The notes beneath the pieces were generated by a model, which searched no databases, had not been told where the DNA came from, and was given only the letters and a program-made list of their open reading frames with translations. A stretch of 64,000 nt of DNA, from positions 1 to 64,000 of the forward strand of contig JAYWIR010000087.1 in assembly GCA_036172245.1 (NCBI GenBank). The letters run 5' to 3'. The translations under genes and the position numbers were made by a program. This DNA comes from Raillietiella orientalis (taxonomy: Eukaryota). This document shows positions 4,321 to 64,000 of the stretch, piece by piece. Each line of letters opens with the position of its first letter. Position 1 is the stretch's first letter.

Positions 4321-4664
4321 TCCGGAGACCCCTGCGACCTCTCGCCCACCCATACCTTGTCCCCTTTCGCTCAGTGAAATTTCCGGTGCATATGCTTTCA
4401 TCTCCGTGTCTTCCAGAGCGATCCCAAGGACCCATATCGCGTCCTCCTTATTTATTGTTTTTATTTTATTTTGGTTTCTTTGTGTATCCCGCCCCCCCCA
4501 ACTCCGTTCTTAAAAGTGTTACTCTGTCCTGCGTGCCAGCAATATTCTTTTTATTCTTGTTCAGTCGTCGGCTGGGAGTTTGGTTCCCAACTAGTTTATT
4601 TTGTATAATTGTTTTTTTTGTTTATGTTATATGGAATAAACCCCCCGGCGTGACCGGGTGAGAA

Positions 4665-6583
4665 ATATCCAGCGCTTGTTCTGCAGAGATCACATAGATC
4701 TCCTGCAGCAGCACAAGGTCGAACGATCCTAGAATGGCGGCCATGTCTCGTCTCCTACCGGCGTCTGTCATGCCGTTTAGGTTCCATACGGCAATGTGCA
4801 GACGACGGAGGGAGGAGATTCGCGGCATTACTGCCGGGGAGATGACGGTGTGGGGGAACCCGCCTCTTCCGAGGCGGGTGAGATGACCATTAGGGTTTCA
4901 GCCTCCTCAGGCACCTTGAATACCTTTCCGGCTTCAACCCCCTCCATCTCCTCCGTGTCTGTGCGTGCTGATCTCTCGTGTGACGATTCCCGGGATTCTC
5001 CCTCGCTCATGGCACTCTCGCAGTCGGAAGTCATCTCCACGACTTCGACCTGGAGAGGGGCTAACCGGGGTTTGCTGGACTTCCTTCCAGCCTTCCGGCG
5101 GGGTGCCGCGGAGATGTAAACTTGGTTTCCGGTCTACGCTACGGGTTCAGTAGTTACCGACTCCTCGGTGAAGGCCGGACGTCTAACTGCCTTTTTGTTA
5201 GCCTTGGAGGGGTCTGGCTGCAATGATGCACCAAGCTTCTCCGCCGCACGCCCGAAGGCGGCGTCATCGATCACGGTCTCGATGACGGACGCTTCTCCCG
5301 GTTGGTTCCCCACGCTGTTGACATTTTCAACAGTGGGTTGTTCATCGGTAGCAGCGATTTCTACCTTGCGGCGTTCGGCGGGAACGCGTGCCACGACGAC
5401 GCTGCATTCTTTTAAATTCTCGCCAACCTGCTGTTTTTTATTTTGGTAGGCTAGCTTTTTTTCAGTTCGTCGTTCTTCCTTCGACTTTTCCTTTTTCGCT
5501 GTGGCTTCTTGCCATTGCGACACCTGACCGCTTTTGTCGATCTTTTCGGCATTCGTTGCCGGGGTATCAACTGCGGCCTGTACCACGGGTGTGGGTGGCA
5601 CAGCTTGAGCGGCAGCCATTTTGTGTAGCAGCCTTCCGCTTCTTTTTAGGTTCCTTGCGGAAACCACGCGCACAGCGAACTGTGGACACACTTTCTTTGT
5701 GTGGCCCATTGTCCCGCATACCTGGCACGGTACGTTGGGGCACCTCCTTTTGAGGTGTCCCGACGTGTTGCAGAAGCCACAGTATTTGGGCTTCCCCACG
5801 TACCAGAGGTCTACGCTTTCTCCGCCGACCACTAGTTTGTGAGGAAGGGTAGAGCCCTCCCGAACGGTTACATGGGCAGCCGTTAGGCCACACTGAACTC
5901 TGGTATAGTCCTCGAAAGGACTAGGCTTGGTCCAAACATCACGGACCGTGCCTTCTTTTCCCAACGCGGCCCATAACTGTTCTTTCCGCATCCGCGCGGT
6001 AACTCCTAAAAGGTGGACCACCATACTGTGGTCCGCCGTAATGGGAAGGCGCCTGCGTGTCCCCATCACCACGGGGGTTTTGAGCAGAGGTTAGTAAGAT
6101 CTGCATGTTAGCAGATCACCTCTACGTACTGCCCTTCGCTACGAATAGTCATAGCGCAGAGCTCATCCTCTTTAACATCGAGAGCGCGCATCCATTTCGA
6201 AAAGTCGCGCGCACTCTCAGAAGAATAGAAATTTTCTACTTGGTAGAATAGTGATGGCTTATACCCCTCTTCCACGTGGCAGATAATTCCGTCGCGGCTG
6301 TAGGCGATGGCGCCAACACGACGGCGTACACGCTCGCGCTGCAGTGGGGACCGGTTGAGTGGGGGCGGACGCCCCCACGTATTTCGCCACTGCTTGCGAC
6401 GATATGGATGCACGCTGGCAGTCCAACTTTTCTAGAAGCAACGTTGTAGCCACCACCTGGCACGAACTGGTGGTCGTGTCAGGCATTGCTGCCTGATCGA
6501 CCACCACCCCACACGAAGCCTACACCTAGGGACGGTTCCCGTCACGAGGAGCACCGAGGAAACACGTCCGCTCTACCCGACGT
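4665..6583 (-). mobile_element. Element B: 5' leader, ORF1 and start of ORF2; cut by A
   Basis: Leader gagcggacgtgttt (reverse complement, about 6560-6573); ORF1 with CGFCNTSGHLKRRC and CQVCGTMGHTKKVC; ORF2 start MPRISSLRRLHIAVWNLNG..LQEIYV at 4828. Confidence 0.9.
4828..6488 (-). pseudogene. B ORF1 (zinc-knuckle protein), disrupted
   Basis: ORFs 5134..6072, 6108..6413 and 4828..5040 together align with ORF1 of C/J. Confidence 0.85.
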
Positions 6584-6697
6584 AAAGCATTCGATTTTCA
6601 CCCGGATTTCGCCGGGGCGTTTATTATAAAACAAACATTTACAAAGACGTGCAGTGGCTGGACCATTGCTCCAGCCACGCACGAAGAAACACAGAGC

Positions 6698-6742
6698 CTG
6701 CCGGGTCACCGGTTGGCAGACCGGTACGGTCCACCGCGGCAG
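6698..6742 (-). other. Conserved 3' UTR nested stem-loop; representative copy
   Basis: Outer stem ctgccg..cggcag and inner accggt-ctgcca-accggt; covarying copies in E, J, L, M and K. Confidence 0.7.
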
Positions 6743-6811
6743 CAGGGGGAAGGGGAAAAACCAAAATACAAAACAAAAAAAAAAGAAAAGTTGGGAGGGT
6801 AAGGGAAGAGA

Positions 6812-9800
6812 TCACAGTTGATGGTGAGGCCGTTGCATCCTTTGCAGGATGCCGGCAAGCTCTTGCTGCATGCTTGGATCCAGGTGGGGCCATCGCGACG
6901 CCCTCCTCAGGAACTGGGAAGCTGGCTGGATGGCAACCTAGTCGCGTTGTCCTCCCGTAGCCTTGCTCCAGGCGACGACGATCCCGCGAATGCAGCACAG
7001 AGCTGCTAACGAGGCCGCTGGCCGAAGGGCGTCGGCAACAAAGAGGGCTTTCAGTGCGTTCCTGGGGTTGCCGCAGGGGATTCCGATGGCCGCGGCAAAG
7101 CGAAACCAAAGGGGCCGAAGGGCAACACAATCCACTAGCAGGTGGGGGAGGGATTCCCGTTACCCACACCTGACGCAATTGGGGTCCACCGCTCCCCAGG
7201 TCCAGTGGTATCGGAGGCCGTTGCAGGGGAGTCATCAGTGCTGCAACAGGAGAGCCGACTCCTGCCATTTTAAGGGGAGGGTGGAAGTGTTCATGAGATC
7301 CGGGGGCCACTTCAGATGTTCAATGGTAACATCGAGCAGCGCGCAAGAGCGCAGAAGTCCATTGGGAGGCGTACTCGGGGACGCAGCGTCTGTTAACTGG
7401 CCCGTCTTCCACTCTCCTATCTTCTTCTCCTTCCCGGAGATTGTAACTGAAACCTCCCACTTCGCTGTACGATCGCTGTCCAGATCTTCCATCAGGGAGG
7501 GCAGCGCAGCAGCGAGGGTGGTTCCTCCTGCCCACACTCTCTTCTTTGGATCCTCAAGGATCTTGCAGAGCATGCAACTTCTGTAACCCCCAAACAGGAA
7601 CCTTCGTTCCTGTTGGGAGCGTTGCATGCCTAAATGTCCCCACGTACGAACGGTTTCCTGCAACCACGAACTACCGTTCAAAGGACGACAGGTGAGCAAT
7701 CCTGGGTTTTTCCGGTACAACGCAGCCACCCTCCGTAGCTGGAGTCCGCATCGGTTGACGCGGCGACGGAGTGCAAGAAACGACGTCAGTCCCGTCTTGA
7801 TGGTGGCTTGCTAAAGAAGGAGACGTGCAGGGACGCACCAACAGGTGCACCACAACTCTGGAACGAGTGCCGACAATCGGAACTGCAGCTGAAGCTCCAG
7901 CCGCTCCAGCGTCAGGAGGCCCAGACCACCGTCCCGATGAGGAGCGCACAAGTCCTTTAAGCGGACTCGGGCCCTCCCGTTGCCCCAAACGGCGATACGG
8001 AGGAGGTCCTTGGTCCGCTTTTTAAGTCTCTCTGTGGGGGAGGCAAACAAAAAGCAGGGGGCGGAGGAGAGAAGCCGCGAACGTGTTCCAAACCGCGGCC
8101 CGTTGAGGCAGGAAAAACCTGCCGCCTCGGAACAAGCCGATCGCCGTCTCTGCTTTTTGGAGGCAGCCGGACCACGCTTCCGCAGGGGAGTAGTTCCCCG
8201 ACGGCACACCAAGGTACTTGAAGTACCTCACCGTGACGATCCATAAACGGACACAGTCCTGCTGCCCTGCCCACTCCGCACCAACTGGCATCACGGACGA
8301 CTTCGCCCTGTTCACCGTAAGTCCGGTTCCCCGATGCAGCAGGTCGAAAAACTTTTCGACCGCCGCAGCCGGGGTGGACATAGGGAGCAGCAGCAGAAGG
8401 TTGTTCGCGTACGCTGAAACCGCTGGCGTACCGGCGCAGTCGTGCGGCAGGTGCGCCAGAGTTCCCCTGTACGCGCTCAGTACCAACTCAAAGTACGTAC
8501 TAAAGAGCAAGGGGTTCAGGCTGTTTCCCTGCCGGATCCCACGCCGCACCGGCACGCCGTGCACGATCTGCCCGCTGAAAGTAACATTGATGAGCGCGTC
8601 GCGCCAGAAGGAGCGCAGATAGGCCACTAATGAGGCCGGGAAGCCCAAGCGTTCCAGAAGCTCTAGAAGGAGATTCTGGTCGACGCAATCGAATGCTTTC
8701 CTCAAATCGATTGCGACCGCAAAGGCTCCCTTCCCCACCCGACCATCCAACCCCTTGCCGGCGCAAGCACCGGAATTCCGGCTGCGCACCAAGCTCCTTT
8801 CATGTTGGAGCTCTAGCCAGGTAGAAGCGTGGAACAGTTTCGCCTCCATGCTTCGCCCGGGAACAGCACATGTCTGTTCCGGGCTGATGAAGGTGTTGGT
8901 AACCCGTCCCAACCTCTCTGCCCAAACCTTAGCCAGCAACTTGGCGTCCGCATTTACTATTGTGATGGGACGCCAGTTGTTCATGCTCCTCAGATCTCCT
9001 CCCTTTGAAAGGAGACGCACCTTTGCCGAACGAAACGAGGCGGGAACGTCACCTGTTTCGCGTATCAGAAAGGTAAGTTGCTGTACCAGGGGGGTAAGCT
9101 CAGCTGCGAAAGTTTAATAATACTCCGCGGGCAGGCCGACCTCCCCTGGAGCCTTGCGCCTCTTGAGCTTTCCGATGGCCGAGAGGATGTCGTCCATCGT
9201 GAAAGGGTCTTCGAGGGTCTTTCTCTGCTCCTCCCCGATCGCTGGAGCGCCTTCCGGAAGCAGAAGTCGTGAGACGTTCCTCTCCGGAGGTGCCCTGGCA
9301 TACAGGGAGGAGTAGTAACTCCGCAGCAGGCCGCGGATTTGGGCAGGTGCCCAGTGCTCCTGGCCCTGATCGCCCAGCAAGCTGGCCGATCCGGACTGCC
9401 AGGCTTGCCTCTCGGCTCCCGCTTTGTATTCCGCCAGCCTGCGGATGTCTGGGGTCCTGGCGTAACGGCGAGCCTGCAGATAGGCTCGTTTGTTACGTAC
9501 TTCGTCCCCAAATCTTGCAGGTAGGCGGTGCAGAGGGAACTGGTCGCAGAACTCCTGGACCGACCGCTTGAAGCGGTCCCAATCCTGAAGTGTCCGCAGC
9601 CTGAAGCTCCGTATGAACGTGCGGAGATGTTACGCCGCGTCCAAGAGCTTTAGCCAGTCCCCTGGGAGACGCCACGCTGACGAGGGGGGACCTCTGTCGC
9701 GCGGATGGATCTCGAGGACTAGCGGGCGATGGGCGGACAGCTCGCACGGTAACTTGCCGCGCCTTCCCACGCGAGGGCACTAGTGCTCGTCAAGGAACAC

Positions 9801-10394
9801 GTGGTCAATGCTGTCTTCCATCCTTGGTGCACTGGTTAACAAATTACGGGTGTGCACCGTCATGCACACCTCGTTCACCAAGTCACGCTCGGGATTCTGC
9901 CCATCTGGTTTCAGGCGAACGTTGAAATCGCCTGCAACCAGATGGGCATTCCGCACGCCTGCTTCGGTCAGCCAGTCTCGGCGGAGGGCAAGGAAAAACT
10001 CTTTCCTCGCCCTCCTGGTCATCAGGTCCGCGCCGCTCGGTGCGTACACGTTTGTGACGATCAGAGCGATCGAGTCGGACCACCTGAGATTCAGCTGGCT
10101 GACACGACCGTGATCGTCGAACCGCACTCCCCGAGCCGCAGCCTCGACGTCTGGCCGAAGCAGGTAAGCCACACGGCAACTTTTCGCTCTCTCACACCTG
10201 TACCATAGCCGCCCTCCGGAGATCCGTTCGATCTCTTGCGCTTGTTCTGCAGAGATCACGTGGATCTCCTGCAGCAGCGCAAGGTCGTAGGACTCCAGAA
10301 GGGCGGCCATGTCTCGTCTCCTGCCGGCGTCTGTCATGCCGTTCACGTTCCAAACGGCGATGCGCAGACGACGGCGGGAGGAGATTCCCGGCAT
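6812..10394 (-). pseudogene. C ORF2 (APE-RT-CCHC), disrupted; YADD changed to YANN
   Basis: ORFs 9780..10394 (APE), 8022..9020 (RT) and 7235..7729. Confidence 0.9.
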
Positions 10395-12070
10395 TACTGC
10401 TGGGAAGATTAAGGTGTGGGGGAGCCCGCCTCTTGCGAGGCGGACGGGATGTCCATGGGGGTTTCGGCCTTCTCAGGCACCTGAGGCACCTGTTCGGCCT
10501 CCACCCCCTACATCCCCTCCGTGTCCGTGCGAGGGAGTCTCTCGGGCGACGGGTCCCGAGAGTTTCCCACGCTCATGGCACCCTCGCTTGCGGAAGCAAT
10601 CTCTTCCCCTTCGACGGGGGAGACGAGCTTCCTTGGCTTTGTGGACTTACGTCCAACCTTCTTGCGCGGTGCCGTGGAAACGGAGGCTGCGTTTCCGGCC
10701 TCCACCTCGGGGTCGGAAGTGGGGGACTGCTGAGGGGAGGCCGGACGCCTTACGGCCTTCTTGCCAGCCTTGGAGGGTTCTGGCTGCAACGAAGCTGCCA
10801 GCTCCTCCGCGGCTCGCGCGAAGGCTACGTCATCGATGGTGGTGTCGATGACGGACGCTGCCGCCGGCTCCCTCCCCTCGCTGTTGATAGTGTCAACAGA
10901 GGGGAGGTCGTCGGTAGCGGCGAGTTCTTTCCGGCAGCGTTCGGCAACATCGAGAACGCGTTCGACAACGACGCTGCACTCTTTAATAATCGCGCTACCC
11001 TGCTCTTTCTTCTTCTGTAGGTAGGCGATTTTCTTTTCCATCCTCCTCTCCTTCTTTGATTTTTTGGCCGTTGCCACTTGCCACCTAGTCTCCTGGCCGG
11101 CTCCATCAACTTCTTCGGCGTTGGTCGCCGGAGTCTCGGGTGCGGCCTGGGTCTTGGGCGCGGGTGGCACAGCCTTCGCGGCAGCTTTCGCCGCAAGCCT
11201 TTTCTGCAGAAGCCGGGCGCGTTTTTAAAGGTTTCTCTTGGAAACCACCCGCACTGCTGCTTTTGGACACACCTCCCTCGTGTGGCCCATTGTGCCGCAT
11301 ACTTGGTACTGCACATTGGGACACCTCTTTTTGAGGTGGCCCGACGTATTGCAGAAGCCACAGTATTTCGGCTTCCCCACATACCAGAGGTCGACGGTTG
11401 CGCCTTCGACCACCAGTTTGTGGGGAAGAGTGCAGCCCTTTTGAACGCTCACGCGGGCAGCAGTGAGGCCGTGTAGCAGCCCCGCGTAGTCGTCGAAAGG
11501 ACTAACTTTCGTCCACTGCGCGTGGACCGTTCCGTATTTCTCCAACGCGGTGCGAACCTGCTCCTTGCGCATCCGCGCGGTACCACCTAACAGGTGGACC
11601 ACCATGCTGCGGTCCGCCTTAATAGGGAGGAGCCTGCGCGTCCTCATCACCACGGGGGTTTTAAGCAGTCGTTGGGCCAGCTCTGCTTGTTTGCAGATGA
11701 CCTCAACGTACTGACCCCCGCTGCGGATGGTCATAGCGCTGAGCTCCTCCTCTTTCACATCGAGAGCGCGCATGCCCTTCGAGAAGATGCGCGCGCTCTC
11801 TAAAGAATATAAATTGCCTACCTTGTAGAACAATGAGGGATTGTATCCCTCCTCTACATAGGCCGACAATTCCGCCGCGGCTGCAGGCGATGGCGCCGAC
11901 ACAACGGCTTTGCACGCCCGCGCTGCAGCGGGGACCGATTCTGTGGGGGCGGATGCCCCCACCTCCATCGCCTCCGGGAACGACGTTGTAGCCGCCCCCT
12001 GGGTCTCCATCGCCTCTGGTCGCGGCGTTGCCGCTGCCCCCTGGCCATTCCCGGTGGTCGCGTCAGGCAT
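10394..12070 (-). pseudogene. C ORF1, disrupted
   Basis: ORFs 11225..12220 and 10508..11170; zinc knuckles; TAATG overlap at 10392-10396. Confidence 0.88.
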
Positions 12071-12167
12071 CGCTGCCTGATCGACCACCGAACCACACGA
12101 CGCTTGTACTGGGGGAGACTTCCTGGCACGAGGAGCAGGGAGAAAACACGTCAACCCTGGAGCACGC

Positions 12168-14149
12168 ACGGCGTACAAATGCGTCGACCTGGATCTCCTT
12201 CTGGAGCTCGCAGAACGCATGGGTTTCCCGTCCGTGCTTTGAACTTACCTGCGCTCCTGCTGGCGCAACGCGTACATAAATATTGGTTTCATCAGTTGGC
12301 ACGTGTACGGCGTGCCAGTAGGCCGCAGCATCCGGCAGGGTGACAGCCTGAGCGCCTTGCTCTTCAGCATCTACTTCGAGTTGGTGCTGAGTGCATACAG
12401 GGTAACTCTGGCAGCTCTGCCGAGCTCGTGTGCTGGCACGCCTGCCGTGGCGGCCTATGCAGACGACCTTCTGCTGCTGCTTCCCGGGTCCACTCCGGCT
12501 AGTGCGCTCGAGGAATTATTCGAGTTGCTGCGCCGCGGGACGGGCCTGGAGGTGAACAGGGCGAAGTCGTCTATGGTCTTTGTGGGTTCGGCGTGGCCTA
12601 GACGGTCGGATTGGATCCTCTAGGAGATCGTCACACTGGCAACTGGCGTCCGATCAAACTTGTGAATGCGGACGCAAAGTTGCATGCCAAGTTGTGGGCT
12701 GAGCGCTTGGGGCGTGTGGCCGCTTCCGTGATCAGTCCGGGCAGACCTATGCTGTTCCCGGACGAAGCATGGAGTCATACCTGCTTCTCGCCAGCACATG
12801 GTGGCAGTTGGGACAACGCGTTGCCCAGGAAGGTCAAGGGAGTCTTGCGCTCCCCTCTGACCAGGAACATTGAAGAGAGGGTGGGAGGGACTCGGCGGGA
12901 GCCTTTTCAGTCGCGGTCGACTTGCACAAAGCATTCGACTGCGTCGACCAGGATCTCCTTCTAAAGCTACAGGAACGAATGGGTTTCCCGTACTTGCTCC
13001 GGTCTTTCCTGCGCTTCTGCTGGAGCAACGCGTATATAATTATTGGTTTCACTGGCCGGCACTTGTACGGAGAGCCGGTTCGTCGCGGCATCCGGCATGG
13101 TGACAGCCTGAGCCCCTTGCTCTACAGCATCTACTTCGAGTTGGTGCTAAAGGCATATAGGGTAACTCTGGCAACTCTGCTGAGCTCGTACGCCGGCACG
13201 CGTGCCGTGTCGGCCTATGCAGACGATCTTCTGCTGCTGCTTCCCGGGTCCACCCTGGCGAGTGTGCTCGAGGAATTCTTCGAGTTGCTGCGTCGCGGGA
13301 CGGTTATGGAGGTGAACAGGGCGAAGTCGTCGATGGCTTGTGTTGGCTCGGCGTGGGCTCGACGGTCGGACTGGATCCGCTTGTGGATCTCACGGGCAGG
13401 TGCTTCAAGTACCTTGGCGTTTTGTTAAGGGACTTCTGCATAGCAGAAGCTTGGTCCGACTGTGTTTAAAAGGCAGCGTTTGCGATCAGTCCGTTCCAAG
13501 AAAGCAAGTTACACTTGCAGCAACGGGCCGAGGTGTGAAACGCGTTTGCTGCTTCCCTCCTTCGCCTTCTTCTTTTTGTTTGCCCCGCCCCTCATTTTAT
13601 TCGCAAACGAGCAGCGTGCTTCCTGAGGACAGTCCTTTGGGGCAAAGGGAGGTCCCGTGTGTGGCTCAAAGTCTTGTGCGCTCTACGTAAGGACGGAGGA
13701 CTTGAAGTGCTTACGCTGGAGCCCATGAAACTGCAACTCCGATCCAGGACTCCCGCTTTCGCGGCTTAATTGTGGGACACGCCTTGTGCGTTCCAGCACG
13801 CCTGCTGGCCCAACGAGCCTGCGGATTCGGCGGACTTTTGTCGTTTCTGTCTGCGCGCGTCTGTAGAAGAGCATACTGTGGCGCTATGCTGCGACGCATC
13901 TTCGTTGCGGATCGGGAGAACGCCTGGATTTTCTGCCTTCCAGGGAACTACTCTGCCTGGTTGCACGGAGAAGTCTCCACCTGGTAAAAGGTCTACGTTC
14001 CGGCGGGCACAAGGAACATTTGCCTGAAAAGGCACTCCCGCTGGATGCTACAGGAGATCGTGCAGTATCACGACAAGCTTCTATGGGCCTTGATAACCCC
14101 CATCTTTCCAGTGCTGCCCTTCCTTGTGAATGCCAGGGACAGTAGCTAG
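12168..14149 (+). mobile_element. Family H ORF2 fragments: RT piece 12168-12634 joined to a second RT-to-C-terminal piece 12632-14149
   Basis: RQGD/RHGD and YADD each occur twice (ORFs 12303..12623 and 12922..13428); homologous to 21560-23556 on the minus strand. Confidence 0.85.
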
Positions 14150-15195: not shown

Positions 15196-15203
15196 AGTGA
15201 AGT

Positions 15204-17837: not shown

Positions 17838-18317
17838 GAGTTCCCCTGTACGCTCTCAGTACCAACTCAAAGTAGGTACGTGGGATCCGGCTGTCTCCCT
17901 GCCGGATCCCACGTTGCACCGGCACGCCTTGCACGGTCTGCCTGCTGAAAGAAACGTTGATGAGCGTGTCGCATCAGCAGGAGCGCAGATAGGCTACTGA
18001 TGAGGCCGGGAAGCCCAGGAGTTCCAGGAGCTCAAGAAGAAGATTCTGGTTGACGCAATCGCATGCTTTGTGCAAGTCGTCTGCGACCGCAAGGGATCCC
18101 TCCTCCACCCGACCATTCGACCCCTTGTTGGCGTACGCAGCGGAGTTCCGGCTGCGCACCAAGCTCCTTTCTTGCTGGAGCTCTAGCCAGGTGGAAACGT
18201 GGAACAGGTTCGCCTCCATGCTTCCCTCGGGAACAGCATATGTCTGTTCCGGGCTGATGCAGATGTTGGTAACCCGCCCCAGACGCTCTGTCCAAACCTT
18301 AGCTAGCAACATGGCGT
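17838..18317 (-). mobile_element. C-like RT fragment, cut at the NADAK motif by G
   Basis: LLAKVWTERLG..ERSLVRSRNS..KACDCV..RQGD, nearly the same as C/J RT. Confidence 0.8.
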
Positions 18318-21555: not shown

Positions 21556-21559
21556 ATGC

Positions 21560-23556: not shown

Positions 23557-23570
23557 GCGTGCTCCAGGTT

Positions 23571-54117: not shown

Positions 54118-55935
54118 ATTTCAATCTCCGCCTGCCAACAGGTGAGCCTGAAACACAAGAGAACGCGATGATCGAGTTGTGCGCCGCCATGCGTGCGCAC
54201 AACTTGTTCGCGGTTGAGAGCGGAATGGCGCGTAGCATCGACCACGTTTTCCTCGACACTGACCTGTGTTCACGGGTCGGCAAATGGGGGAAGATTGCCT
54301 CGACGCTTTCGGACCATTCCGGGCTAATTTTCGAGATGCGGCCTCACGACAAGGGACCGCCATCCCGAATACCTGAGAAGTGTCACGTTCGGGAATCTCC
54401 AGGACTGGAACCTTTTTAAGGAATCGGTCCGCGTTTTCTGCGAGCAGTTCCCCCTGGATCGCTGCCCTTGGATTTGGCGAGGGTACTTGCAACCATCGAG
54501 CCTATTTACAGGACCTTCGTTACGAGAGAAAATCTAATGTCTGTCGCTTAGCCGAGTACAGCGCTGGGGCCGAACGCCAAGGCTGGCAATCCGAGTCGGC
54601 CAGCTTGCTGAACGACCAGGGCCGGGAATTTTCGTCCCCGGCGTCTGTACGGCATCTCGTGCAAAGATTTTATTCAGGCCTCTACGCCAGGACGCCTCCG
54701 GACCAAGATGCCTCTTGGCGCTTGTTCCCAAATGGTGCCCCGGCAATTGGGCAAGAGGAGTCAATGAGCCTCGACGAGCCTTTCGCTACCGGCGAAATTC
54801 TCGCTGGTATCAAAAGGCTCAAGAGGCGTGTTGCTTTGGAGGGGGACGGCTTGCCTGCGGAGTTCTTTCAGTGGTTCGCGGATGAGCTTGCCCCCCTGCT
54901 GCTCGTGTTGACAAGGCTGATCTGAAACAAAGGCGATGTTCCCGCCTCGTTTATGTCAGCCAGAGTGACGCTCCTTCCGAATGGTGGAGACCTCGGGGAT
55001 TTAAATAACTGGCGTCCCATCACCATCGTGAATACTGACGCCAAGATGCTAGCAGGGTTATGGGCTTCGCGTTTGGGGCAGGTGGCCGAGTCCATAATTA
55101 GCCCGGAGCAGACCTATGCTGTTCCCGGGCAAAGTATGGACGCCAACCTCTTTTTCGCAAGCACGTGAATGCACCTGCAAAGGAGAGAAAAAAAGGGAAA
55201 GGGAAAATCGGCAACCCAACATTGGGGCCGCTAGCGGGGCTGGAGATTGACCCCGGGGCGGGGAAGGGAGCCCTAGCGATCGCAGTCGATCTCTGTAAGG
55301 CGTTCGACTGTGAAGATCAGGAACTTCTCTTAAAGTTCCTGGGTCGCATGGGCTTCCCACCCTCTTTGATGTCCTACCTGCACTCTTGCGGGCAAAATGC
55401 GATGATTACCATCTCTTTCAGCGGTCACAAGGTGTATGGCGTGCCGGTGCGGCGGGGCAGAAGGCAAGGAGATCGCTTCAGCCTACTGCTCTTTAGCACC
55501 TACTTTGAGTTGGTGCTGAGAGCGTACAGGCTGACTTTTGCCCCCTTGCCGAGCTCGTGCCCTGGTTCGCCCGCCGTAAGAATTTATGCCGACGGTCTTC
55601 TGCTCCCGTTACCTATGTCCACCGCGGCGGAGGCAATCAGAGATTTCTTCGACATGCTCAATTGCAGCACCGGACTGCAGGTGAAGCTGACGAAGTCGTC
55701 GGTGGTGCCAGTTGGTGCAACGTGGGCAGGGCAGCAGGACTTGGTCCGTTTGGGGATCCCCACAGCGAGGTGCATCAAGTACCTTGGTGTGCCGTTTGGG
55801 GAATTCTTCCCTGTGGAAGCGTGGTCGAGGTTCCTTTAAAAAGTCGAGACGGCGATCGTCCCGTTCCTGGAAGGCAAGTTTAACTTGTCGGAACGGGCCG
55901 CGGTTTGGAACGCCTTGGCGGCCCCTATCCTCCGC

Positions 55936-58712
55936 AACGAACGCGCGTGCAAATACGCGCGTTCCTTGCAAGCCCCTTTGTTAAATCCCCAAGACAGACG
56001 TTGCACAGGGAACTGTTCGCAGAACTCCCGGACCGAGTCCTTAAATAGGTCCCATTCCGCGAGATTCTGGAGGGTGACGCCTCGCAGGAATTCGCGAAGA
56101 AGTTCTTTCGCTCCTGACAGGAGCGTTCAGTTCCCTGGCATACGCCAATCCTTGGATGGCGGTCCCTTGTCGCGCGGACGCATCTCGAATAATAACCAAG
56201 AATGGTCCAACAGCGTCCAGCCAAGTGTCCCTCGTTTTCCGACCCATGTGCACAGGTCTCCGTCGAGAAAGACGTGGTCCACGCTGCTGTCCATCCTCTG
56301 TATTTCTGTCAACAAGTTGCGCGCACGCATGGCGGCGCACAACTCGTTGATCGCGTTCCCCTGTGCTCCGGGCTGATCTGAGAGCAGGCGGACGTTGAAA
56401 TCCTCTGCTATCAGATGCGCCTTTCGCACGTTTGCGTTCACCAGCCATTCGCGCTTCAAGGGTTCAAGTAACGCGTTGCGCTGCTGGTACCCTTTTTACA
56501 GCTTGGAGCGTACACATTGGTGACGATGAGTTCGATCGAATCCGACCATCTGAGAATCAGTTGGCCGATCCGTTCGTCGTCCCCAGAGCGCACGCCGTTC
56601 ACGGCCGCGTTAATAGCTGAGTTTAGAAAGAAAGCGACTCCACAAGTGATGCGGGCGCCGCATCGCAAGTACAGCCGCCCTCCCGCTATCGTTTCAATCT
56701 CCTGAGCGTCTTTTGCGGTAATCACGTGGATCTCCAGCAAATGCTCCAGGTCGGAATCTCACAAGGTGGCGGCTGTATCTCGTCTGTTTCCGTCGTCGCG
56801 CAGCCCGTTGGAATTACAACTGGCCACGCGGATCCGACGGCGACAGGCGAGTCCAGGTGTTATTCATGGGAAATTGGCGGTGGTGCTCCCGCCACCTTTT
56901 GGGGCGGGTCGCTGGACGGGGTTTGCGTCTTGCCCACCAACTCTCCATCCTTCTTACGTGCCGACGTCTCCGGCTGCCCGTGCGAAGGGAATGTTGCTCG
57001 TACCTGTTGGCCCACATCCATTCATGCGGGTGGTTCAGGTTTGGCGGTCTCAGGGGGCATTGCTGACCCCTGGTTACCCTCCTCCATTGGAGTCGCCTCG
57101 TCGTCGGCTTCCGCACGTGAGTGATGCTCGAGTTGGGCTCCCACGCTGCCATCCTCTGGTTCCTCCTCCATTGGATCCCCCTCGCGCGGAGGCGGAATGC
57201 ACCTATGGGGTTTCTAGGATTTTCGCCGCGCTTTCCTTGGTGGTGCTTCCGCAGAGAAGGATGCACTTCATGCCTTTCGGTCCGACTCACCTGCGGAGGC
57301 CATTTTAGCCGCTTCCGGCCTACGCAACACCTTTCGCGGAGGGTTCTCGCGTTCGGTAAGCGTTGCCGCAAGCTTCTCGGCGGCCTTCTCGGAGGCTGCG
57401 TCCTTGGTTTCGGCGAGTTTGTCGTCCAGCTGATCCTCTTCGCAAGCAGGGGGTGAGTTTTCGCGCGCATTGGTCGCGGCGGAAAAAACGATAGAAGCCG
57501 TATCACCTCCGGGGGTGTCGGTGGGAACGTCAATGCGCTCCAGCGTAACCGTGCTTTTTGGGAGAGTTTTAACGCGCGACACGGATTGAGCTTTTGTTCC
57601 GGCCACCGCCTCTTCTCCTTTCTTCGGGACATGCTTGTCCTTATTCTCTTTTTTGGCTTCAATTAGCTTCCAGCTCTGTTATCCCTCTGCGGTTCCGGGA
57701 AGATTTTACTCCGATGCCGCGGTTCGATCTAGGGTTATTGGCAGCTTTTCTCGCACAGCTTCACGGTTTTTAAAATTTTTCTTTCCCCGCGCGTTTCCCT
57801 TGCGCCTTTTTCGCGGACGACAAAATTGGGGTGGGGCGTTTAGAGCACACGCGACGGACGTGTCCCTTCTCCCCGCACAAGTAGCATACGATGTTTGGGC
57901 ACCTCTTTCGGATGTGACCGAACGTATCGCAGTAGCCGCAATACCGTGGCTTGCCCGAATACCAGAGGTCTACCGGTTCTCCCGCGACCTCAAGTTTGTG
58001 GGGTAGTTTCGCATCGTTTTTTGGGGTTACACGTGCTCCGGCGAGGCCCCCGAAGTGGCGTCCGTAGCCCTCAAAGATTGTGGGCTTCGGCAACAGCGCG
58101 TGTACGTCGCCGTACTTACTTAATTCTTTTTTGACGGCAGTGCGCGTCATGCGCATAGATGTTCCTGTCAAGTGGACCACTACCGAGTGTTCCATTGACA
58201 CCGGGTAGATCTTACGGCCGTCAATGATCAGCTGGGTATTTATAAGGCGATCGGCTATGCTGATGCTCTTGCACACCACCTCAACCCGCTGCGCCCCGGC
58301 TGAGCACGCATAGACCTTCCAGATCTTCCCCACGGACATTAGCATTTTGAAGCGCTCTGCTGAAAGCGCGCGCCGTGTTTTCCTCAAAGGGCCTACCTTG
58401 TCTACAAGCGAAGGCTTGTATTCACTATCCCGATAGGCGGCTTCCTCGGCCATGGCCTCCGCACTGGGAGCGGCGACCAATTCACTCCAAGTCTTCACCG
58501 GCTGCGAAGACGTTCCAGGGACTATTACCCCCATAGCTGTAGGTCATGTGGGAGGACTTGCCTCCCCCACAACTACATCCATCGCGGTGTCCTCTGACAC
58601 GGATGCTATCGGACACCTTAGACCCACACATTACACCTGACTACACTAAAAACTCCGTTTGCTTCCCAGACAAGGGCTGGCGGAGCGACCAAAAAACACG
58701 TCCACCCACACC
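55936..58712 (-). mobile_element. Element N: leader, ORF1 and APE; 3'-truncated
   Basis: gtggacgtgttttt leader (reverse complement, about 58691-58705); CGYCDTFGHIRKRC and CYLCGEKGHVRRVC; TAACA junction at 56858-56862. Confidence 0.87.
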
Positions 58713-58725
58713 GACTTTCGGCGAT

Positions 58726-60826
58726 GCCACCTGGTTCCGCGGGACGTTTATTAAAAACATTTCAGCAGTGAATACAGAACGTGGTTCAAGGCCCCACTGA
58801 CAGCCACGCAATACTGAAACTGCCGGGACACCGGGACGCAGCTCGGTGTGGCTCTCCTCGGCAGTGGGGGGGGATGGGTGAGAAAACAAAAAAAAAATAA
58901 AAGAGAAAAACAGACCACAAAAAAAGTTTGGAGGGCCGGGAAGGGATCACAGAAAACTGCTGGGAGGGCCTGTCCTTTGCAGGATGCCTTCTAGTTCCAT
59001 TTTCAGTTTTCCAAGATAAGGCCATTTGGTAGCTCTCTGCAGGAAGCGAGAAGCATACTCGATGACATCCCTCACGATGCAGTCTTCATCTTCGGCATCA
59101 TTCCAGGCCGCCACGATAACACGAATGCAGAAAAGTGCTGCAAGGGCTGCGGCTGGGATGAGGGCGTCCCGCACAAAGACAAGACTGAAGACACATCCAA
59201 CATTGCCACCATTTGGTATACCTAGTCCCGATTTAGGACGATCCCAAAAAATGCGGACGGCAGAGCATTTAACTAATCGGTGGGGGAGCGGCTCCTGCTC
59301 CGCATATCTGGCACACGCAAGATTAACTCTTCCCCGCGTATAGTGGAAGCGACGCGCGTTGAAGGGTAGACCCTAATGTAGCCACAGAAGCGCCGATCCT
59401 TGCCACTTCAGGGGAAGAATCCTGGATTTAACTAGAACCGGAGACCACTTCAGGTCATGTAATCGAATGCCGAGCAGCTCGCCCCATCTTCTTAATTCAC
59501 GCGAATGGAGACTAGGGGTCGTTGCATCTGTCAACTCTCCCATGGTCCAGCCGCTCATCATCTTCTCTCTGCCTGCGATACGGCAGCAGACTTGTCACCT
59601 TGGCTTACGACTTTCGTGAACTGCCCTTTGGAGGAAGGGCATCGCCGTAACAAGGGGTGTGCCTTCCGCCCACGTGCAACTCGGTGGAAATACAAGAATT
59701 TCACGGAGAGTTCGGCGGGCGCAAAAGCCGACTCGCAGGCAGTTCATCCGGTCTTCGCACCTCTAGTTCTGCTTGGCCCAGGTGCCAGCAGTCTCTTCCA
59801 GCCAAGCGGAGGAGCTGGCGGTGCCACAAACCATCCAGTCGTTCTCCTTTACCAGGGTTGCCATGCGGCCGAGCAGTAGACCGCATCTTCGAATCTTCAG
59901 GTGAGGGCACAGAAGAAACGATGCGAGTCCTTCGCAGCGGGACACAAGCCTGGCCAGGAGGTGGGCCGGAATGCACCAAGCGGTGCTTTACATCTTCGCT
60001 GCGATGGCGAGGGTTCGCCATTGCATCTGGATTTTCACGCGCTTCAGCGTCAAGATACTGAGACCGCCGTCCCGACAAGGAGCGCACAAGTCCTTCAAAG
60101 GGACTCGGGGCCTCCCCTTGCCCCAAAAAGCTATGCGGAAGAGGTCTTTTGTCCGCTTTTTAGATCCCACGGCGGCGGAAAGCAAGGGACGGAGGATGGG
60201 GGCCGCGAAGGCGTTCCAAACCGCGGCCCGTTCTGGCAAGTGAAACTTGCCTTCCAGGAACGGGTCGATCGCCGTCTCGACTTTTTGGAGGCAGCTGGAA
60301 CACGCTTCCGCAGGGGAGAAGTCCCCTAACGGCACACCGAGGTACTTGATGCACCTCACCGTGGGGATCCCCAGACGGACCCATTCCTGCTGCTCTGCTC
60401 ACGCCGCACCAACTGGCATCATGGACGACTTCGCCCTGTTCACCGTAAGTCCGGTTCCCGGATTCAGCAGGTCGAAGAACTTCTCGACCGCCGAAGCCTG
60501 GGAAGACATAAGAATCGGCAGCAGAAGGTCGTCCGCGAGCGCTGAGACCGCAGGCGTTGCGGCGCATCCATGCGGCAGGTGCGCCAGAGTTTTCCTATAC
60601 GCTCTCAGTACCAACTCAATGTAGGTACTGAAGTGCAAGAGGCTCAGGCTTTCTTATTGCAGGATTCCACGTCGCACCGGCACGCCGTGAACAGTCTGCC
60701 GCTGAAAGTAAGATTGATTTGCGAATGGCGCCTGCTGGAGCGCAAATAGTCCTTTAATGAGGGCGGGAAGCCCAAGCGTTCCAAAAGCTCCAGCAAGAGA
60801 TTCTCGTCGACGCAATCGAATGCTTT
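58726..60826 (-). mobile_element. Element K: 3' half from KAFD to the terminal hairpin
   Basis: KAFDCVD, LADD, GKFHLPERAAVW; 3' end aataaacgtcccgcggaaccaggtgg (reverse complement). Confidence 0.85.
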
Positions 60827-61279
60827 CCATCTCCGCGCCACCCCGACGGAAGGCTGGAAGGAAGTCCAGCAAACCCCGGAAAGCTTCTACCCATACCGAA
60901 GGCGTGGAGTCTACTGCGGACAGCGAGGGTGCCATGAGCTTGGGAGAATCACTGGAATCGTCACCCGAGAGAGCAACACTCACAGACACGGAGGAGATGG
61001 AGAGGCTTGAAGCCTGAAAGGTAACCAAGGTGCCTGAGGAGGCCGAAACCCTAATGGTCATCTCACCCGCCTCGGAAGAGGCTAGTTCCATTACGCCGTC
61101 ATCTTCCCGGCAATAATGCCGGGAATCTCCTGCCTCCGTCGTCTGCACATTGCCGTATGGAACGTAAACGGCATGACAGGAGCCGGCAGGAGACGAGACA
61201 TGGCCGCCATTCCAGGATGGTTCGACCTTGCGCCGCTGCAGGAGATCCATGTGATCTCTGCAGAACAAGCGCAGGAGAT
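60827..61279 (+). mobile_element. Element B': B-family fragment starting exactly after the KAFD target of K; cut by A'
   Basis: Homologous to 4665-5118; preceded by aatcgaatgcttt (60814-60826); TAATG overlap at 61114-61118. Confidence 0.85.
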
Positions 61280-63498
61280 TTCTCACCCGGTCACGCCGGG
61301 GCGTGTATTCCATATAACATAAACAAAAAAAACAATTATACAAAATAAACCAGTTGGGAACCAAACTCTCAGCCGACGACTGAACAAGAATGAAAAGAAT
61401 ATTGATGGCACGCAGGCCAGAGTAACAGTTTTGAGAACGGTGTGGGGGGGGCGGGGAACACAAAGAAACCAAAGTAAAATAAAAACAATGAATAAGGAGG
61501 ACGGGGTAAGGGTCTTTAAGATCGCTCTGGAAGACACGAAGATAAAAGCATTGGCACCGGAAATTTTACCAAGCGGAAGGGGACAGGATATAGGTGGGCG
61601 AGAGGTTGAAGGGGTCTCCGGATTACGCCGTTCTCAAAGGTCTGTAAACCGGCGATGCATGCCGGTGATGTCCTCATTCACCTTGTCACGAAGATGAGAC
61701 CACCTTGAAGCCTTCTCCATGGATTGAGCTGCAAGCAGGTGAGCCTCCCTTCGCTGCGCCTAAAACTCCAGGGCGTAGCGGGCCTTGACGATGGCGCGAA
61801 CGCAACACATGGTTGCCACAATCGCGCCAACCGAAAGTACATTCCTGCTCAAGAAGCGCCGCAGCACATCAATGGCTGTGCCTCCTTGTGGCATGATGGC
61901 CGAAGTGAGCCTTCGCCACAGTTCCCGGAGGTCACCGTAGTCCAGCAAAAGGTGCGGAAAAGACTCGATCTCTCCGCACCTTAAACAGTTTGGCAGAGCA
62001 GCGCTCCCGGAAACGATGCTTCGCTGCCTATTACAGTGTAATGCACAATGTAAAAAGAGCAGCACATCTTGTTTCCACTTTAAGGGGAACACGGAGCTGT
62101 CCAAACAAACGGGGGGAACCACTATCTCTCAGGGGGGCACACTTAAATATTCGCTCCACCGAAGTATACCCTTCGCCCGATTCGGAGGAGCGGCGGCTTA
62201 CACCAGCTCCTTTGTCGTCCAACTGCCGAGGAGCTTACTGACTGCCGCCATTTTGCAGGAGAACTCCCATTCCGCCGGTAGACAACCGTGGTTGCTTGCA
62301 CTGAGGGCAGACAGCGCTGCGGCGAGTATTGTGGCGGGCAGACGATCCGACAACTTCTTGTCCTGCATGACTTCGTCCATTCGATGACTGAGGAGAAGTC
62401 GCAGGCGCCGAAGTTCTTCCGGGCGCGTTCCTTTGGAAGCTGCCTACGATGAAAAACATTCCTGCCGCCATGCATTAATGTTCATAAGGCGGCAGGAGAT
62501 CCAGCTTTGGGCTCCCAGTTGTGACGACAGCTGCCTCAGCGGGAAGCCAAACCCTATTCTGGTGTGCCGAAAGTGGGGTAGCAACGACAGCAGTCCCTCG
62601 CTTCCCGTGCAGCGCCTCAGTATAAGGCGTGCGGGTAAGTACCACGGCGTTCACTACTGTTTGGCACAGAGGCGCAGTATCCGAAACTGGACCTGCAGTT
62701 CGATGCTGTTTAAGTCGAGGATGCCCAAGCCTGCATCCTGACGCGCCGCCACCAAGTCTTTAAGTCTTACGCGGGATCTTGCAGCGCCCCGCAACGCTTT
62801 GCGTAAAAGGCGCTGCGCCTAGACTTTGACTTCCTGGGGAGTGGACAAACAAAATACAGGGGGCGGAAGAGGGGGGCAACGTAGGTGTTCCAGATGCAGA
62901 CCCGTTCCGGCAAGACGAACTCGCCTTCTGAAAACGGGCCAAGTGCACGCTCTGCCTTCCGAAGGCAGTCCGACCACTCTTCTGTGATGCAGAAGTCGCC
63001 CAACGGCACGCCAAGGTACCTGAGGTACCTGCCCGTGGAAATGCCTAGGTCGATCTAGTCGAACTGCCCTTCCCACGTCGCACCTACCGGAACAACCATA
63101 CACTTACTCCTGTTAACGCTCACGCCCGCACCGAGACGAATCAACTCAAAGTCTTCAAGCGATGTTGCCGGGGTGGACATGGGCAACAGGAGAAGCAGGT
63201 CGTTGGCATAGGCTGCCACGGCCGGCGTACCTGGACAGGATCTCGGCAGGTTGGCTAGCGTCAGCCTGTAAGCCTCCAGCACCAATTCAAAATAGATGCT
63301 GAAGAGCAGCGGGCTTCAGCTATCACCCTGCCCAATTCCTCGTCGTACCGGCACTCCATACACGCGACAGCCACTGAAAACAATGGATGTAATCGCATAG
63401 CGCCAGCAGGAGCGCAAGTTCGCCAACATGGATGTCGGGAGATTCAGACGTTCCAAAAGCTCAAGAAGAAGCTTTTGGTTCACGCAATCGAAAGCTTT
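61280..63498 (-). mobile_element. Element A': A-family 3' half, cut at its own KAFD motif
   Basis: Homologous to about 2440-4664; same junction with the B-family APE as A. Confidence 0.88.
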
Positions 63499-64000
63499 GC
63501 GCCCTTGCGGTCGCAATTAACTTGCGGAAAGCATTCGATTGCGTCCACTAGAATCTTCTTCTGGTGCTTCTGGAACGCTTGGGCTTCCTGGCCTCTTTAG
63601 TGGCCTATCTGCGCTCCTGCTGCCGCGACGCGCTCATCAACGTTACTTTCAGCGGGCAGTCCGTGTACGGCGTGCCGTTTCGGCGTGGGATACGGCAAAG
63701 AGACAGCCTGAGCCCCTTGCTCTTCAGTACGTACTTTGAGTTGGTACTGAGAGCGTACAGGGGATCTCTGGCGCACCTGCCGCACGATTGTGCCAGTACG
63801 CCGGCCGTTTCAGCGTACGCGGACGACATTCTGCTGCTGCTCCCTATGTCCACCCCGGCTGCGGCGGTCGAGGAGTTCTTCGACCTGCTGCATCGGGGAA
63901 CCGGACTTACGGGGAACAGGGTGAAGTCGTCCGTGATGCCAGTTGGTGCGGCGTGGGCAGGGCAGCAGGACTGGGTCCGTTTGGGGATCCCCACAGAGAG
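63499..64000 (+). mobile_element. Element Z: C/L-like RT fragment antisense to A', running out of the window
   Basis: AVAINLRKAFDCV..RQRDSLSP..LAHLPHDC..YADD. Confidence 0.8.

What the first reader, a model, noticed from the sequence alone, without database searches (positions are those of the whole stretch)
4635..63500. Reciprocal targeting between families
A-family elements cut the B-family APE (4664 and 61280), while a B/C-like element cuts the A-family RT (63498). G cuts a C-like RT (18317), while C-like L cuts M, which shares G's TAACA-type ORF junction. A/F-like I and F cut G and O. Mutual nesting implies contemporaneous activity and possibly an arms race between TE families (inference).
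Basis: inference. Interest (0 to 1): 0.78.

Follow-up and report, generated by a model that had tools for sequence, protein, structure and literature searches.

The report
LINE retrotransposons nested reciprocally at fixed sites
This 64-kb stretch is a pile of related LINE jumping genes, several of which land at one exact spot in the enzyme-coding sequence of their relatives, so families end up inside each other in both directions; this looks like a by-product of shared landing sites, not an arms race.

Summary

The window holds only L1/Tx1-type LINEs, about 21 copies, all decayed.

Several lineages insert at their own fixed nucleotide:
- B-type guests insert antisense at the RT 'KAFD' codons. 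There are five junctions within about 5 nt, in hosts of three clades.
- F inserts at the endonuclease 'GDFN' codons, twice, in tandem around an 8-bp target-site duplication (TSD).
- L inserts in the linker of M, with a 16-bp TSD.
- A inserts at one endonuclease-domain (APE) nucleotide of B-type hosts, seen twice.

Nesting does run both ways. A sits in B-type and B-type Q sits in A. L (B clade) sits in M, and M-type G' sits in B-clade D. The chain P > B'' > A2 > Q shows interleaved activity.

Two repeated junction pairs may each be one event inherited by descent: A1/B' with A2/B'', and B1/X' with B2/X.

Nothing supports an arms race. Synonymous variation at the target codons is average, and B-type elements hit their own clade. 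Shared-motif homing explains the reciprocity.

Earlier notes from this scan describe the same phenomenon on other DNA of this genome.

I class it as a new variant of target-specific LINEs and Zepp-like clusters.

The parts
1..4664 (+). A1, A-family LINE. Its 5' part runs off the window. RT at 2265-2903, intact KAFD site at 2442-2453, 3' box at 4635-4659, tail GAGAA at 4660-4664.
4665..6569 (-). B', a B-type element (75.6% to B2). Its full-length 5' end is at 6569. It is cut in the APE (B2 coordinate 1936) by the 3' end of A1.
6584..6594 (-). KAFD-site copy TCGAATGCTTT, sandwiched between the 3' end of B1 and the 5' end of B' (head-to-tail tandem).
6595..12161 (-). B1, a full-length B element. 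It is 96.1% identical to B2 and shares 4 in-frame stop codons with it.
12162..12634 (+). X', an RT stub that starts at the KAFD break. It is 95.9% identical to the flank of B2 (23090-23557).
12640..14161 (+). Y, an X-clade RT part. Its KAFD site (12927-12941) is unoccupied and serves as the empty site for B2 in X.
14170..15180 (-). R, the 5' part (ORF1) of an M/G'-like element. It lies head-to-tail behind C.
15203..17815 (-). C, a C-family element that is 5'-truncated. Its 3' box and tail GAAAA end at 15203.
17838..18319 (-). D, a B-clade RT fragment (B2 coordinates 3708 to 3217). It is the host side of the 5' junction of G'.
18318..20399 (+). G', an M-type element (TAACA ORF junction). It has a full-length 5' end and is cut in the APE by I.
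20400..21500 (-). I, the 3' part of an A/F-like element. The 3' box is at 20402-20426. The 5' limit is approximate.
21500..23562 (-). X, 3' half (X clade). It ends at the left TSD copy TCGAACGCCTTGCGTGC (23546-23562). The 3' limit is approximate.
23563..29132 (+). B2, a full-length B element inserted antisense in the KAFD site of X. Its tail is TAAAAA.
29133..29801 (-). X, upstream RT part. It begins with the right TSD copy TCGAATGCTTTGTGC (29133-29147).
29802..32113 (+). M, left part (ORF1 with CCHC, and APE). It holds an empty GDFN site at 31771-31778.
32114..37632 (-). L, a full-length B-clade element inserted antisense in M. The 16-bp TSD lies at 32098-32113 and 37633-37648.
37633..40605 (+). 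M, right part (RT to near the 3' end). About the last 47 bp are missing.
40606..42298 (+). N, left part (M clade), up to the GDFN codons.
42299..48205 (+). F1, a full-length F element inserted in sense orientation at the GDFN codons of N.
48214..54117 (+). F2, a second full-length F element, 90.4% identical to F1. It lies behind the TSD copy ATTTCAAT (48206-48213). The next TSD copy is at 54118-54125.
54118..55932 (+). N, right part. It carries the empty site for L (around 54385-54400) and ends in a non-canonical junction with O.
55933..58703 (-). O, an M-type element. Its 5' end is at 58703 and its 3' part is missing.
58727..60827 (-). P, a host broken at its KAFD codons (60815-60826). It is a mosaic: B-like for about 465 bp after KAFD, then M-like.
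60828..61279 (+). B'', a B'-type guest that is 5'-truncated at B2 coordinate 1483. It sits in the KAFD site of P and is cut by A2 at the same APE nucleotide as B'.
61280..63502 (-). A2, the 3' part of an A-family element, 90.1% identical to A1. It is broken at its KAFD codons (63487-63498).
63503..64000 (+). Q, a B-type RT 90% identical to B2, starting at B2 coordinate 3441. It is read as a 5'-truncated guest in A2 and runs off the window.

Best explanation
The window is a LINE-only pile-up of at least six related lineages of APE-type LINEs of the L1/Tx1 kind. They are labelled A, F, B (with sub-lineages B1/B2/Q, B'/B'' and L), M (M, N, G', O, R), C and X.

Several lineages insert by target-primed reverse transcription at one fixed short sequence inside the ORF2 coding region of related LINEs:
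- B-type elements nick the host's coding strand at the RT motif 'KAFD' (AAAGCATTCGA^T) and end up antisense, with a 13-17-nt duplication.
- F inserts in sense orientation at the endonuclease motif 'GDFN' (ATTTCAAT).
- L inserts antisense in the APE-RT linker of M-type elements.
- A and I insert antisense at two points 30 nt apart, just after the endonuclease 'LLQEI' motif.

Because these motifs are shared by homologous families, any lineage can be host to another and guest in it. Reciprocal nesting is therefore an automatic by-product of homing to relatives' conserved codons during a long period of joint activity. It is not a sign of antagonistic co-evolution.

Shown directly: the junctions, the TSDs, the empty sites and the order of nesting.
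Inferred: that the encoded endonucleases determine the sites; that a duplicated target site is hit again to give head-to-tail tandems; and that the pile serves as a safe landing ground.
For: Composition of the window:
- Only LINE domains are present. 25 of 352 ORFs of 90 aa or more hit Pfam: 13 RVT_1, 7 Exo_endo_phos, 2 zf-RVT, 3 zf-CCHC, and nothing else.
- The best solved relative is human L1 ORF2p (E 6e-37, against 2e-11 for R2).

Complete insertions with TSD and an empty site in a sister copy:
- B2 in X, with Y empty.
- L in M, with N empty.
- F1 and F2 in N, with M empty.

KAFD site:
- The junctions X/B2, X'/B1, P/B'', A2/Q and the spacer between B1 and B' all lie within about 5 nt.
- The 3' junctions of B1 and B2 are at the identical nucleotide.
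- The hosts belong to three RT clades.

Other recurrent sites:
- The A1 and A2 3' ends fall in the same alignment column of B'/B''.
- A contig of an independent run shows another F-type 3' end followed by ATTTCAAT and then CTCCGCCTGCT (record 1).

Ends of the elements:
- 10 element 3' ends share AATAAAC...CCGG..CCGGGT plus short, lineage-specific, non-poly(A) tails.
- 8 full-length 5' ends share GGACGTGTTT.

Order of nesting and targets:
- Interleaved order P > B'' > A2 > Q.
- The target of L is M-type specific, while the target of B is universal.

Known precedents from passages read:
- Tx1-clade LINEs target other transposons and give tandem copies sandwiching a TSD (PMC4494074).
- Zepp targets existing copies (PMC8226300).
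Against: - Site recurrence for A rests on two junctions that may be one event. Identity is 90.1% in the element and 87.9% in the flank, which is not significantly different.
- B1/X' is probably a copy of the B2/X junction, with 96% identity in both the element and the flank.
- G' in D, I in G', and the two 5'-truncated guests (B'', Q) are each seen at one junction only.
- Six junctions are not canonical and are unexplained: 12634|12640, 14161|14170, 17815|17838, about 21500, 40605|40606 and 55932|55933.
- The two TSD copies of B2 differ at 3 positions plus a 2-nt indel.
- No endonuclease activity was tested.
- No genome-wide census was possible.
- All copies are decayed, so nothing shows present activity.
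Confidence: 0.75

Rival explanations
1. Arms race. The families attack each other's genes, and victims evolve escape changes at the target codons while attackers follow.
For: Nesting runs in both directions. Three of the four lineages with a defined site carry a different sequence at their own copy of that site: F has ACTTCAAC against the target ATTTCAAT, and L and A differ at many positions.
Against: The B-type target is identical in B elements themselves, and a host with a B-like RT (P) is hit. A site with 3 synonymous differences (X) is occupied. Synonymous diversity at the KAFD-region codons is 0.72, 0.56, 0.00 and 0.50, against a mean of 0.48 (sd 0.26) over 146 invariant-residue columns. 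The differences in A, F and L at their own sites track their general divergence from the host clade. Most copies are dead, so selection on them is not expected.
Confidence: 0.07
2. The reciprocity is only apparent. Q is not a guest but the resumed host B'' after a roughly 1.5-kb target deletion made when A2 inserted. A1/B' and A2/B'' are one event copied as DNA or as a composite RNA. On this reading only 'A in B' exists, once.
For: Q has the same orientation and clade as B''. The alignment 2438-5120 vs 63502-60824 passes through the junction, with similar divergence on both sides. B1 shows that elements here do get copied together with flanking DNA. Q starts only 27 nt before its own KAFD codons, an odd coincidence.
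Against: A2 is broken at the KAFD cleavage position used in P (13 nt from the nick) and within about 5 nt of X. A chance 5' truncation there has odds of about 5 in 6000 (my arithmetic). Q is 90% identical to B2, whereas a B'-type RT is expected near 83% by calibration on L. B' is full length and tandem with B1, while B'' is 5'-truncated at coordinate 1483 and sits in the KAFD site of P. The contexts therefore differ exactly at a target site. The B-M reciprocity (L in M, G' in D) does not depend on Q.
Confidence: 0.12
3. Random nested accumulation. The LINEs insert anywhere in a gene-poor region, and the nesting carries no target information.
For: Six junctions are irregular. Gene-poor repeat regions commonly collect nested insertions (established knowledge).
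Against: Five B-type junctions lie within about 5 nt. The 3' junctions of B1/B2, of A1/A2 and of F1/F2 are each at the identical nucleotide. TSDs are of fixed length and orientation is fixed per lineage: 9 antisense cases and 2 sense cases, both sense cases being F.
Confidence: 0.03

Closest known systems
Target-specific Tx1-clade LINEs. Examples: Tx1 in the piggyBac-type Tx1D; Tx1-Mar in Mariner-N4_AMi; Tx1-8_Crp and Tx1-4_AMi in LTR retrotransposons; Keno in U2 snRNA genes (PMC4494074, passages read).
   Same: They are APE-type LINEs with a fixed target sequence, and some target other transposons. They make TSDs of about 16 bp and tandem copies that sandwich a TSD. The endonuclease is held to set the target. 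A relative cluster of the window's RT is named 'transposon TX1 uncharacterized 149 kDa protein' by its source (27-33% identity).
   Different: Here the targets are conserved coding motifs of sibling LINE families, and for B of the element's own clade. Hosts and guests are therefore homologous and nest in both directions. Several lineages with different sites share one pile. Clade membership was not tested by phylogeny.
Zepp (Chlorella, Coccomyxa) and ZeppL (Chlamydomonas) L1-type LINE clusters (PMC8226300, PMC3446292, PMC9940879, passages read).
   Same: They form LINE-only clusters built by insertion into existing copies, and the clusters are GC-rich relative to the genome. [quoted passage not shown]
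   Different: Zepp clusters are described as one family, made mostly of 3' ends. In the passages I read, no nucleotide-level target is given. Here there are at least six lineages, many full-length copies, and defined sites in catalytic-motif codons. The tails are short and fixed rather than poly(A). Relatedness to Zepp was not tested.
R1/R2 rDNA-specific LINEs (PMC1919474 and PMC5035012, search listings and abstracts only).
   Same: They insert sequence-specifically into a multicopy, conserved target that cannot easily change, and they produce 5'-truncated copies at the same site.
   Different: Their target is a host gene, not another mobile element. R2 uses a restriction-like endonuclease.

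Membership tests
L1-superfamily APE-type LINE | ORF2 with an N-terminal APE endonuclease, a central RT and a C-terminal zinc-binding domain | tested here: met
   Exo_endo_phos, RVT_1 and zf-RVT occur in this order in B2 (25252-28908), and likewise in other copies. The best PDB match is L1 ORF2p at E 6e-37.
L1-superfamily APE-type LINE | ORF1 upstream of ORF2, insertion with TSDs, frequent 5' truncation | tested here: met
   ORF1 carries a CCHC knuckle. TSDs are 8, 16 and 15-17 bp. The truncated copies include B'', Q, C, Y and I.
Tx1 clade | RT groups with Tx1 elements in a phylogeny | not tested
   No labelled reference set was available. The only lead is a source-given name 'transposon TX1...' on one relative cluster; other top relatives are unnamed.
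Tx1 clade | Target-specific insertion, with more than 20% of flanks of one kind (criterion in PMC4494074) | tested here: met
   Within this window, all 5 B-type junctions are at KAFD, 2 of 2 F copies are at GDFN and 2 of 2 A copies are at one APE nucleotide. The genome-wide share could not be tested.
Zepp / ZeppL | Clusters made of LINE copies inserted into earlier copies | tested here: met
   The whole 64 kb is LINE in LINE.
Zepp / ZeppL | One family per cluster, arrays mostly of 3' ends | tested here: not met
   There are at least six RT clades. B1, B2, L, F1 and F2 are complete copies. B', G' and O also keep an intact 5' end, but their 3' parts are missing or interrupted.
Zepp / ZeppL | Phylogenetic affinity to green-algal L1 (Zepp) elements; centromeric location | not testable with these tools
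   No Zepp sequences and no chromosome context are held.

The most novel reading that the evidence does not exclude
A self-sustaining guild of site-specific LINE lineages whose landing pads are the catalytic-motif codons of one another's, and partly their own, ORF2 (KAFD, GDFN, the region after LLQEI, NADAK). Target specificity has switched between close relatives: B and L are 74% identical in DNA but use different sites. Such a guild would build LINE-only chromosome domains without touching host genes. It would also tie each lineage's target supply to sequences that its relatives cannot change without losing function.
Probability: 0.55. Interest if true: 0.75.

Novelty: new variant of a known kind. 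Interest (0 to 1): 0.58.

Why it matters
If it holds genome-wide, this gives a nucleotide-level mechanism for how LINE-only, Zepp-like domains arise. Each lineage homes to a conserved codon string of its relatives. The pile therefore feeds itself and host genes are spared. It would also give a natural series of closely related APE endonucleases with different, known target sequences, which is useful for studying how target specificity evolves. The specific 'arms race' reading would matter more, but the window gives no support for it.

Tried and rejected
- Whole genome: none is held, so no who-in-whom matrix could be made.
- Rfam and tRNA scans of the window found nothing.
- The search for homologous proteins with the F2 ORF gave 4 distant hits without names.
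- The protein atlas gave only generic RT/APE clusters.
- A metagenome scan for the B 3' junction pattern gave 0 matches.
- The search for related loci with an RT alignment gave 6 loci at only 26-40% identity, none usable.
- The sequencing-run search listed one DNA holder with a 0.18 share of words and no RNA holder.
- Laid contigs of that run are mostly 90-95% alike, so they are other copies. One contig (record 5) reaches only 29 letters across the A2/B'' junction, below the tool's 31-letter rule, so it was not counted.
- The search of earlier findings by sequence for two junctions returned nothing.
- A 3' stem-loop was tested on 10 element 3' ends. Only 4 pairs were predicted, with no compensatory change, so I claim a conserved box and not a structure.
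- I considered reading TAA/TAG as sense (table 6). B2 ORF2 is then open for 1219 codons. I rejected this for two reasons. Table 6 also opens many spurious frames, for example 21317-25381 across several elements. And ORF1 of the B and M types ends in TAA where A, F and N have TGA.
- I considered P as a guest in B''. I rejected this because the spacer between P and O does not match the B' sequence at coordinate 1483.
- Higashiyama 1997 (PMC1169995) is not held, so what it says about Zepp targets is taken only from the citing passage in PMC8226300.
- One paper search failed on term length.
- Searches for a described LINE-in-LINE coding-motif target turned up none. This is no proof of absence, since subscription papers and Repbase reports are not searched.

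Full report
WHAT THE WINDOW IS

The 64 kb has 53-62% G+C, no tRNA and no Rfam family. I scanned 352 stop-to-stop ORFs of 90 aa or more. Of these, 25 hit Pfam at E of 0.001 or better, and every hit is a LINE domain: 13 RVT_1, 7 Exo_endo_phos, 2 zf-RVT and 3 zf-CCHC. The longest ORF (F2, 668 aa) matches human L1 ORF2p best among solved structures (E 6e-37, against 2e-11 for R2).

The closest protein in 1.8 billion representatives is an unnamed metagenome protein, P0005. It is 71% identical to the B RT. The next relatives are 26-38% identical and come from fishes, a turtle, a pseudoscorpion and an alga. One such cluster is named 'transposon TX1...' by its source. No whole genome is held, so everything below rests on this window.

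MAP

Self-comparison and mapping onto one full-length copy, B2 (coordinate 1 = window 23558), resolve about 21 copies. The parts list gives their coordinates.

A 464-bp RT tree gives these clades:
- B: B1, B2, Q, D, P, L
- M: M, N
- C
- X: X, X', Y
- A (A1, A2), sister to F (F1, F2)

The ORF1/ORF2 junction supports the same groups:
- TAATG in B1, B2, B', B'' and L
- TGATG in A and F
- TAACACCTGG in M, G' and O, with TGACACCTGG in N

Ten element 3' ends share AATAAAC..CCGG..CCGGGT plus a short lineage-specific tail (GAGAA, GATAA, A/GAAAA, TTCAA and others) and no poly(A). Nine of these came from the pattern scan, which also gave 2 other hits, and C was seen by eye. Eight full-length 5' ends share GGACGTGTTT; the pattern itself had 53 loose hits. 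A stem-loop in the 3' box is not supported by covariation.

COMPLETE INSERTIONS

Three events have both junctions, a TSD and an empty site in a sister copy.

- B2 in X. B2 (23563-29132) lies antisense in X. The empty site in Y reads GCAG-TCGAATGCTTTGTGC-AAGTCGACC, and X carries this string on both sides of B2.
- L in M. L (32114-37632) lies antisense in M with a perfect 16-bp TSD, CGCTCCGGAATCTCCA. N has the site once.
- F1 and F2 in N. They lie head to tail, in sense orientation, at GGGAG-ATTTCAAT-CTCC. An ATTTCAAT copy sits between them and after F2, the extra 5' letters differ (CCGAG against GGAG), and M has the empty site.

The targets are coding motifs. The B site is the RT 'KAFD' codons, and the F site is the endonuclease 'GDFN' codons.

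THE KAFD SITE IS HIT REPEATEDLY

In guest orientation the host ends as follows:
- X: ...TCGAACGCCTTGCGTGC|
- X': the same string, decayed
- P: ...TCGAATGCTTTCC|
- A2: ...TCGAAAGCTTTGC|

B1 is followed by TCGAATGCTTT and then the 5' end of B'. The 3' junctions of B1 and B2 are at the same nucleotide. The hosts X, P and A2 belong to three clades. P has a B-like RT next to the break, so B-type elements also hit their own kind.

Of 16 RT copies with this region in the window, 4 are occupied (X, X', P, A2) and 12 are not.

By my arithmetic, three further independent junctions within a 6-nt span of a 5.5-kb element have a chance of about 1e-9.

- A1 (3' end at 4664) and A2 (3' end at 61280) abut B' and B'' at the same column, 10 codons after LLQEI.
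- I ends 30 nt further along, in the APE of G'.
- The full-length 5' end of G' abuts B-clade D in the 'NADAK' region of the RT. Only this one side is visible.
- Q starts at 63503 against the KAFD break of A2.

I read Q as a 5'-truncated B-type guest for two reasons. The break in A2 is at the B-type cleavage position, as in P. And Q is 90% identical to B2, whereas calibration on L suggests about 83% for a B'-type RT.

The alternative is that Q is B'' resuming after a 1.5-kb deletion. I cannot exclude this without sequence beyond the window. I put it, together with the 'single A event' reading, at about 0.12.

INDEPENDENCE OF REPEATED JUNCTIONS

The alignment 2438-5120 vs 63502-60824 passes through both A/B junctions. 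A1 and A2 differ at 219 of 2221 sites, and B' and B'' at 55 of 454 (z about 1.4, not significant; windowed values). The pair could therefore be one event copied, or two events in coeval families.

The contexts differ, which favours two events. B' has its full 5' end and follows B1. B'' is cut at coordinate 1483 exactly at the KAFD site of P.

B1 is a different matter. It matches B2 at 96.1%, and the 467 bp beyond its 5' end match the flank of B2 in X at 95.9%, while X and Y are only 84% alike. The similarity stops exactly after TCGAATGCTTT on the 3' side. B1 and B2 share four in-frame stops. I read B1 as a copy of the already dead B2, carried with 467 nt of upstream flank (5' transduction, mobilised in trans) and landed at another KAFD site beside B'. 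A DNA-level duplication is not excluded.

B1 and B2 differ by 0.4 to 7.4% per 500 bp, which suggests later gene conversion between the inverted copies.

RECIPROCITY AND TIMING

With only site-precise junctions counted, the host-guest relations are:
- X > B2
- M > L
- N > F1, F2
- B' > A1
- B'' > A2
- G' > I
- P > B''
- A2 > Q
- D > G'

Nine guests are antisense. The two sense guests are both F.

Reciprocal pairs exist: A in B-type and B-type in A; B-clade L in M and M-type G' in B-clade D.

The chain P > B'' > A2 > Q places B-type insertions before and after an A insertion. The clades were therefore active together, or in alternation, and not in a strict family-by-family order. B'' and Q need not be the same sub-lineage.

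ARMS RACE

I found no support.
- The B target string is carried unchanged by B elements.
- Occupied sites include AAGGCGTTCGAC (X), which has 3 synonymous differences.
- Among 146 codon columns with an invariant residue in at least 6 lineages, the mean pairwise codon difference is 0.48 (sd 0.26). The KAFD-region columns score 0.72, 0.56, 0.00 and 0.50. The sample is small.
- F, L and A do differ from their targets at their own homologous site. These lineages are also the most diverged from their hosts, so this is not evidence of escape or self-avoidance by selection.

KNOWN RELATIVES OF THE PHENOMENON

Passages read in PMC4494074 state three things. Many Tx1-clade LINEs are target-specific, and some target other transposons (Tx1D, Mariner-N4_AMi, LTR elements). 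Tandem copies sandwiching a TSD arise by sequential insertion. Co-transcription with the target can aid targeting.

My searches found no description of LINE lineages homing to coding motifs of sibling LINEs. The library lacks most subscription papers and Repbase reports, and Higashiyama 1997 was not readable.

Earlier notes of this scan report the same kind of site-specific LINE-in-LINE nesting on other pieces of this genome. I used them as leads only.

UNRESOLVED

Six junctions lack tails or TSDs: 12634|12640, 14161|14170, 17815|17838, about 21500, 40605|40606 and 55932|55933. They may be 5'-junction deletions, template switches or later deletions.

P is a mosaic. It is B-like for about 465 bp after KAFD and M-like afterwards. 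The switch lies within about 10 nt of the RT position where X' ends.

A contig of an independent run shows one more F-type 3' end at ATTTCAAT|CTCCGCCTGCT.

VERDICT

The best explanation is a guild of target-specific LINEs that land on conserved codons of their relatives. I class this as a new variant of a known kind.

Noticed in passing
6595-12634 vs 23090-29143: B1 carries 467 bp of the upstream flank of B2, at the same 96% identity as the element itself. B1 and B2 share 4 in-frame TAA/TAG codons. This suggests a dead copy was re-mobilised with 5' flank (5' transduction) or duplicated as DNA.
   Followed up: partly
B1 6595-12161 vs B2 23563-29132: Divergence between the two inverted copies is mosaic, from 0.4% to 7.4% per 500 bp. 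This suggests gene-conversion tracts between copies 11 kb apart.
   Followed up: partly
58727-60827 (P); 12162-12634 (X'); 17838-18319 (D): P is B-like for about 465 bp next to its KAFD break and M-like beyond. The switch lies within about 10 nt of the RT position where the X' stub ends. Three guests (B1, B'', G') each have a 465-490-bp RT stub on their 5' side, followed by a different element.
   Followed up: partly
23546-23562 vs 29133-29147; 6584-6594: The two TSD copies of B2 differ: TCGAACGCCTTGCGTGC against TCGAATGCTTTGTGC. The copy after the 3' end is the same beside B1 and B2. The 3' flank may therefore travel on the RNA (read-through), as discussed for other target-specific LINEs. This is inference only.
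   Followed up: no
15181-15202 and 58704-58726: There are two more head-to-tail pairs, C then R and P then O. They are separated by 22-24-nt spacers that look like further target sites. The C/R spacer resembles antisense RT sequence at about B2 coordinate 3860. The P/O spacer weakly resembles ORF2 C-terminal sequence.
   Followed up: partly
25252-28911: ORF2 of B2 is open for 1219 codons if TAA and TAG are read through (5 such codons, no TGA). I judged these to be decay mutations, because ORF1 of the B and M types ends in TAA where A, F and N have TGA.
   Followed up: yes
12634|12640, 14161|14170, 17815|17838, ~21500, 40605|40606, 55932|55933: Six junctions have no tail, TSD or 5' motif. Four of them join a 3'-cut element to a 5'-cut element in the same orientation. 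Possible causes are template switches or deletions at 5' junctions.
   Followed up: partly
protein P0005: An unnamed metagenome protein of 619 aa, from a 2870-bp contig, is 71% identical to the B RT and 65% to the M RT. A member of this LINE group therefore exists in an environmental data set.
   Followed up: partly
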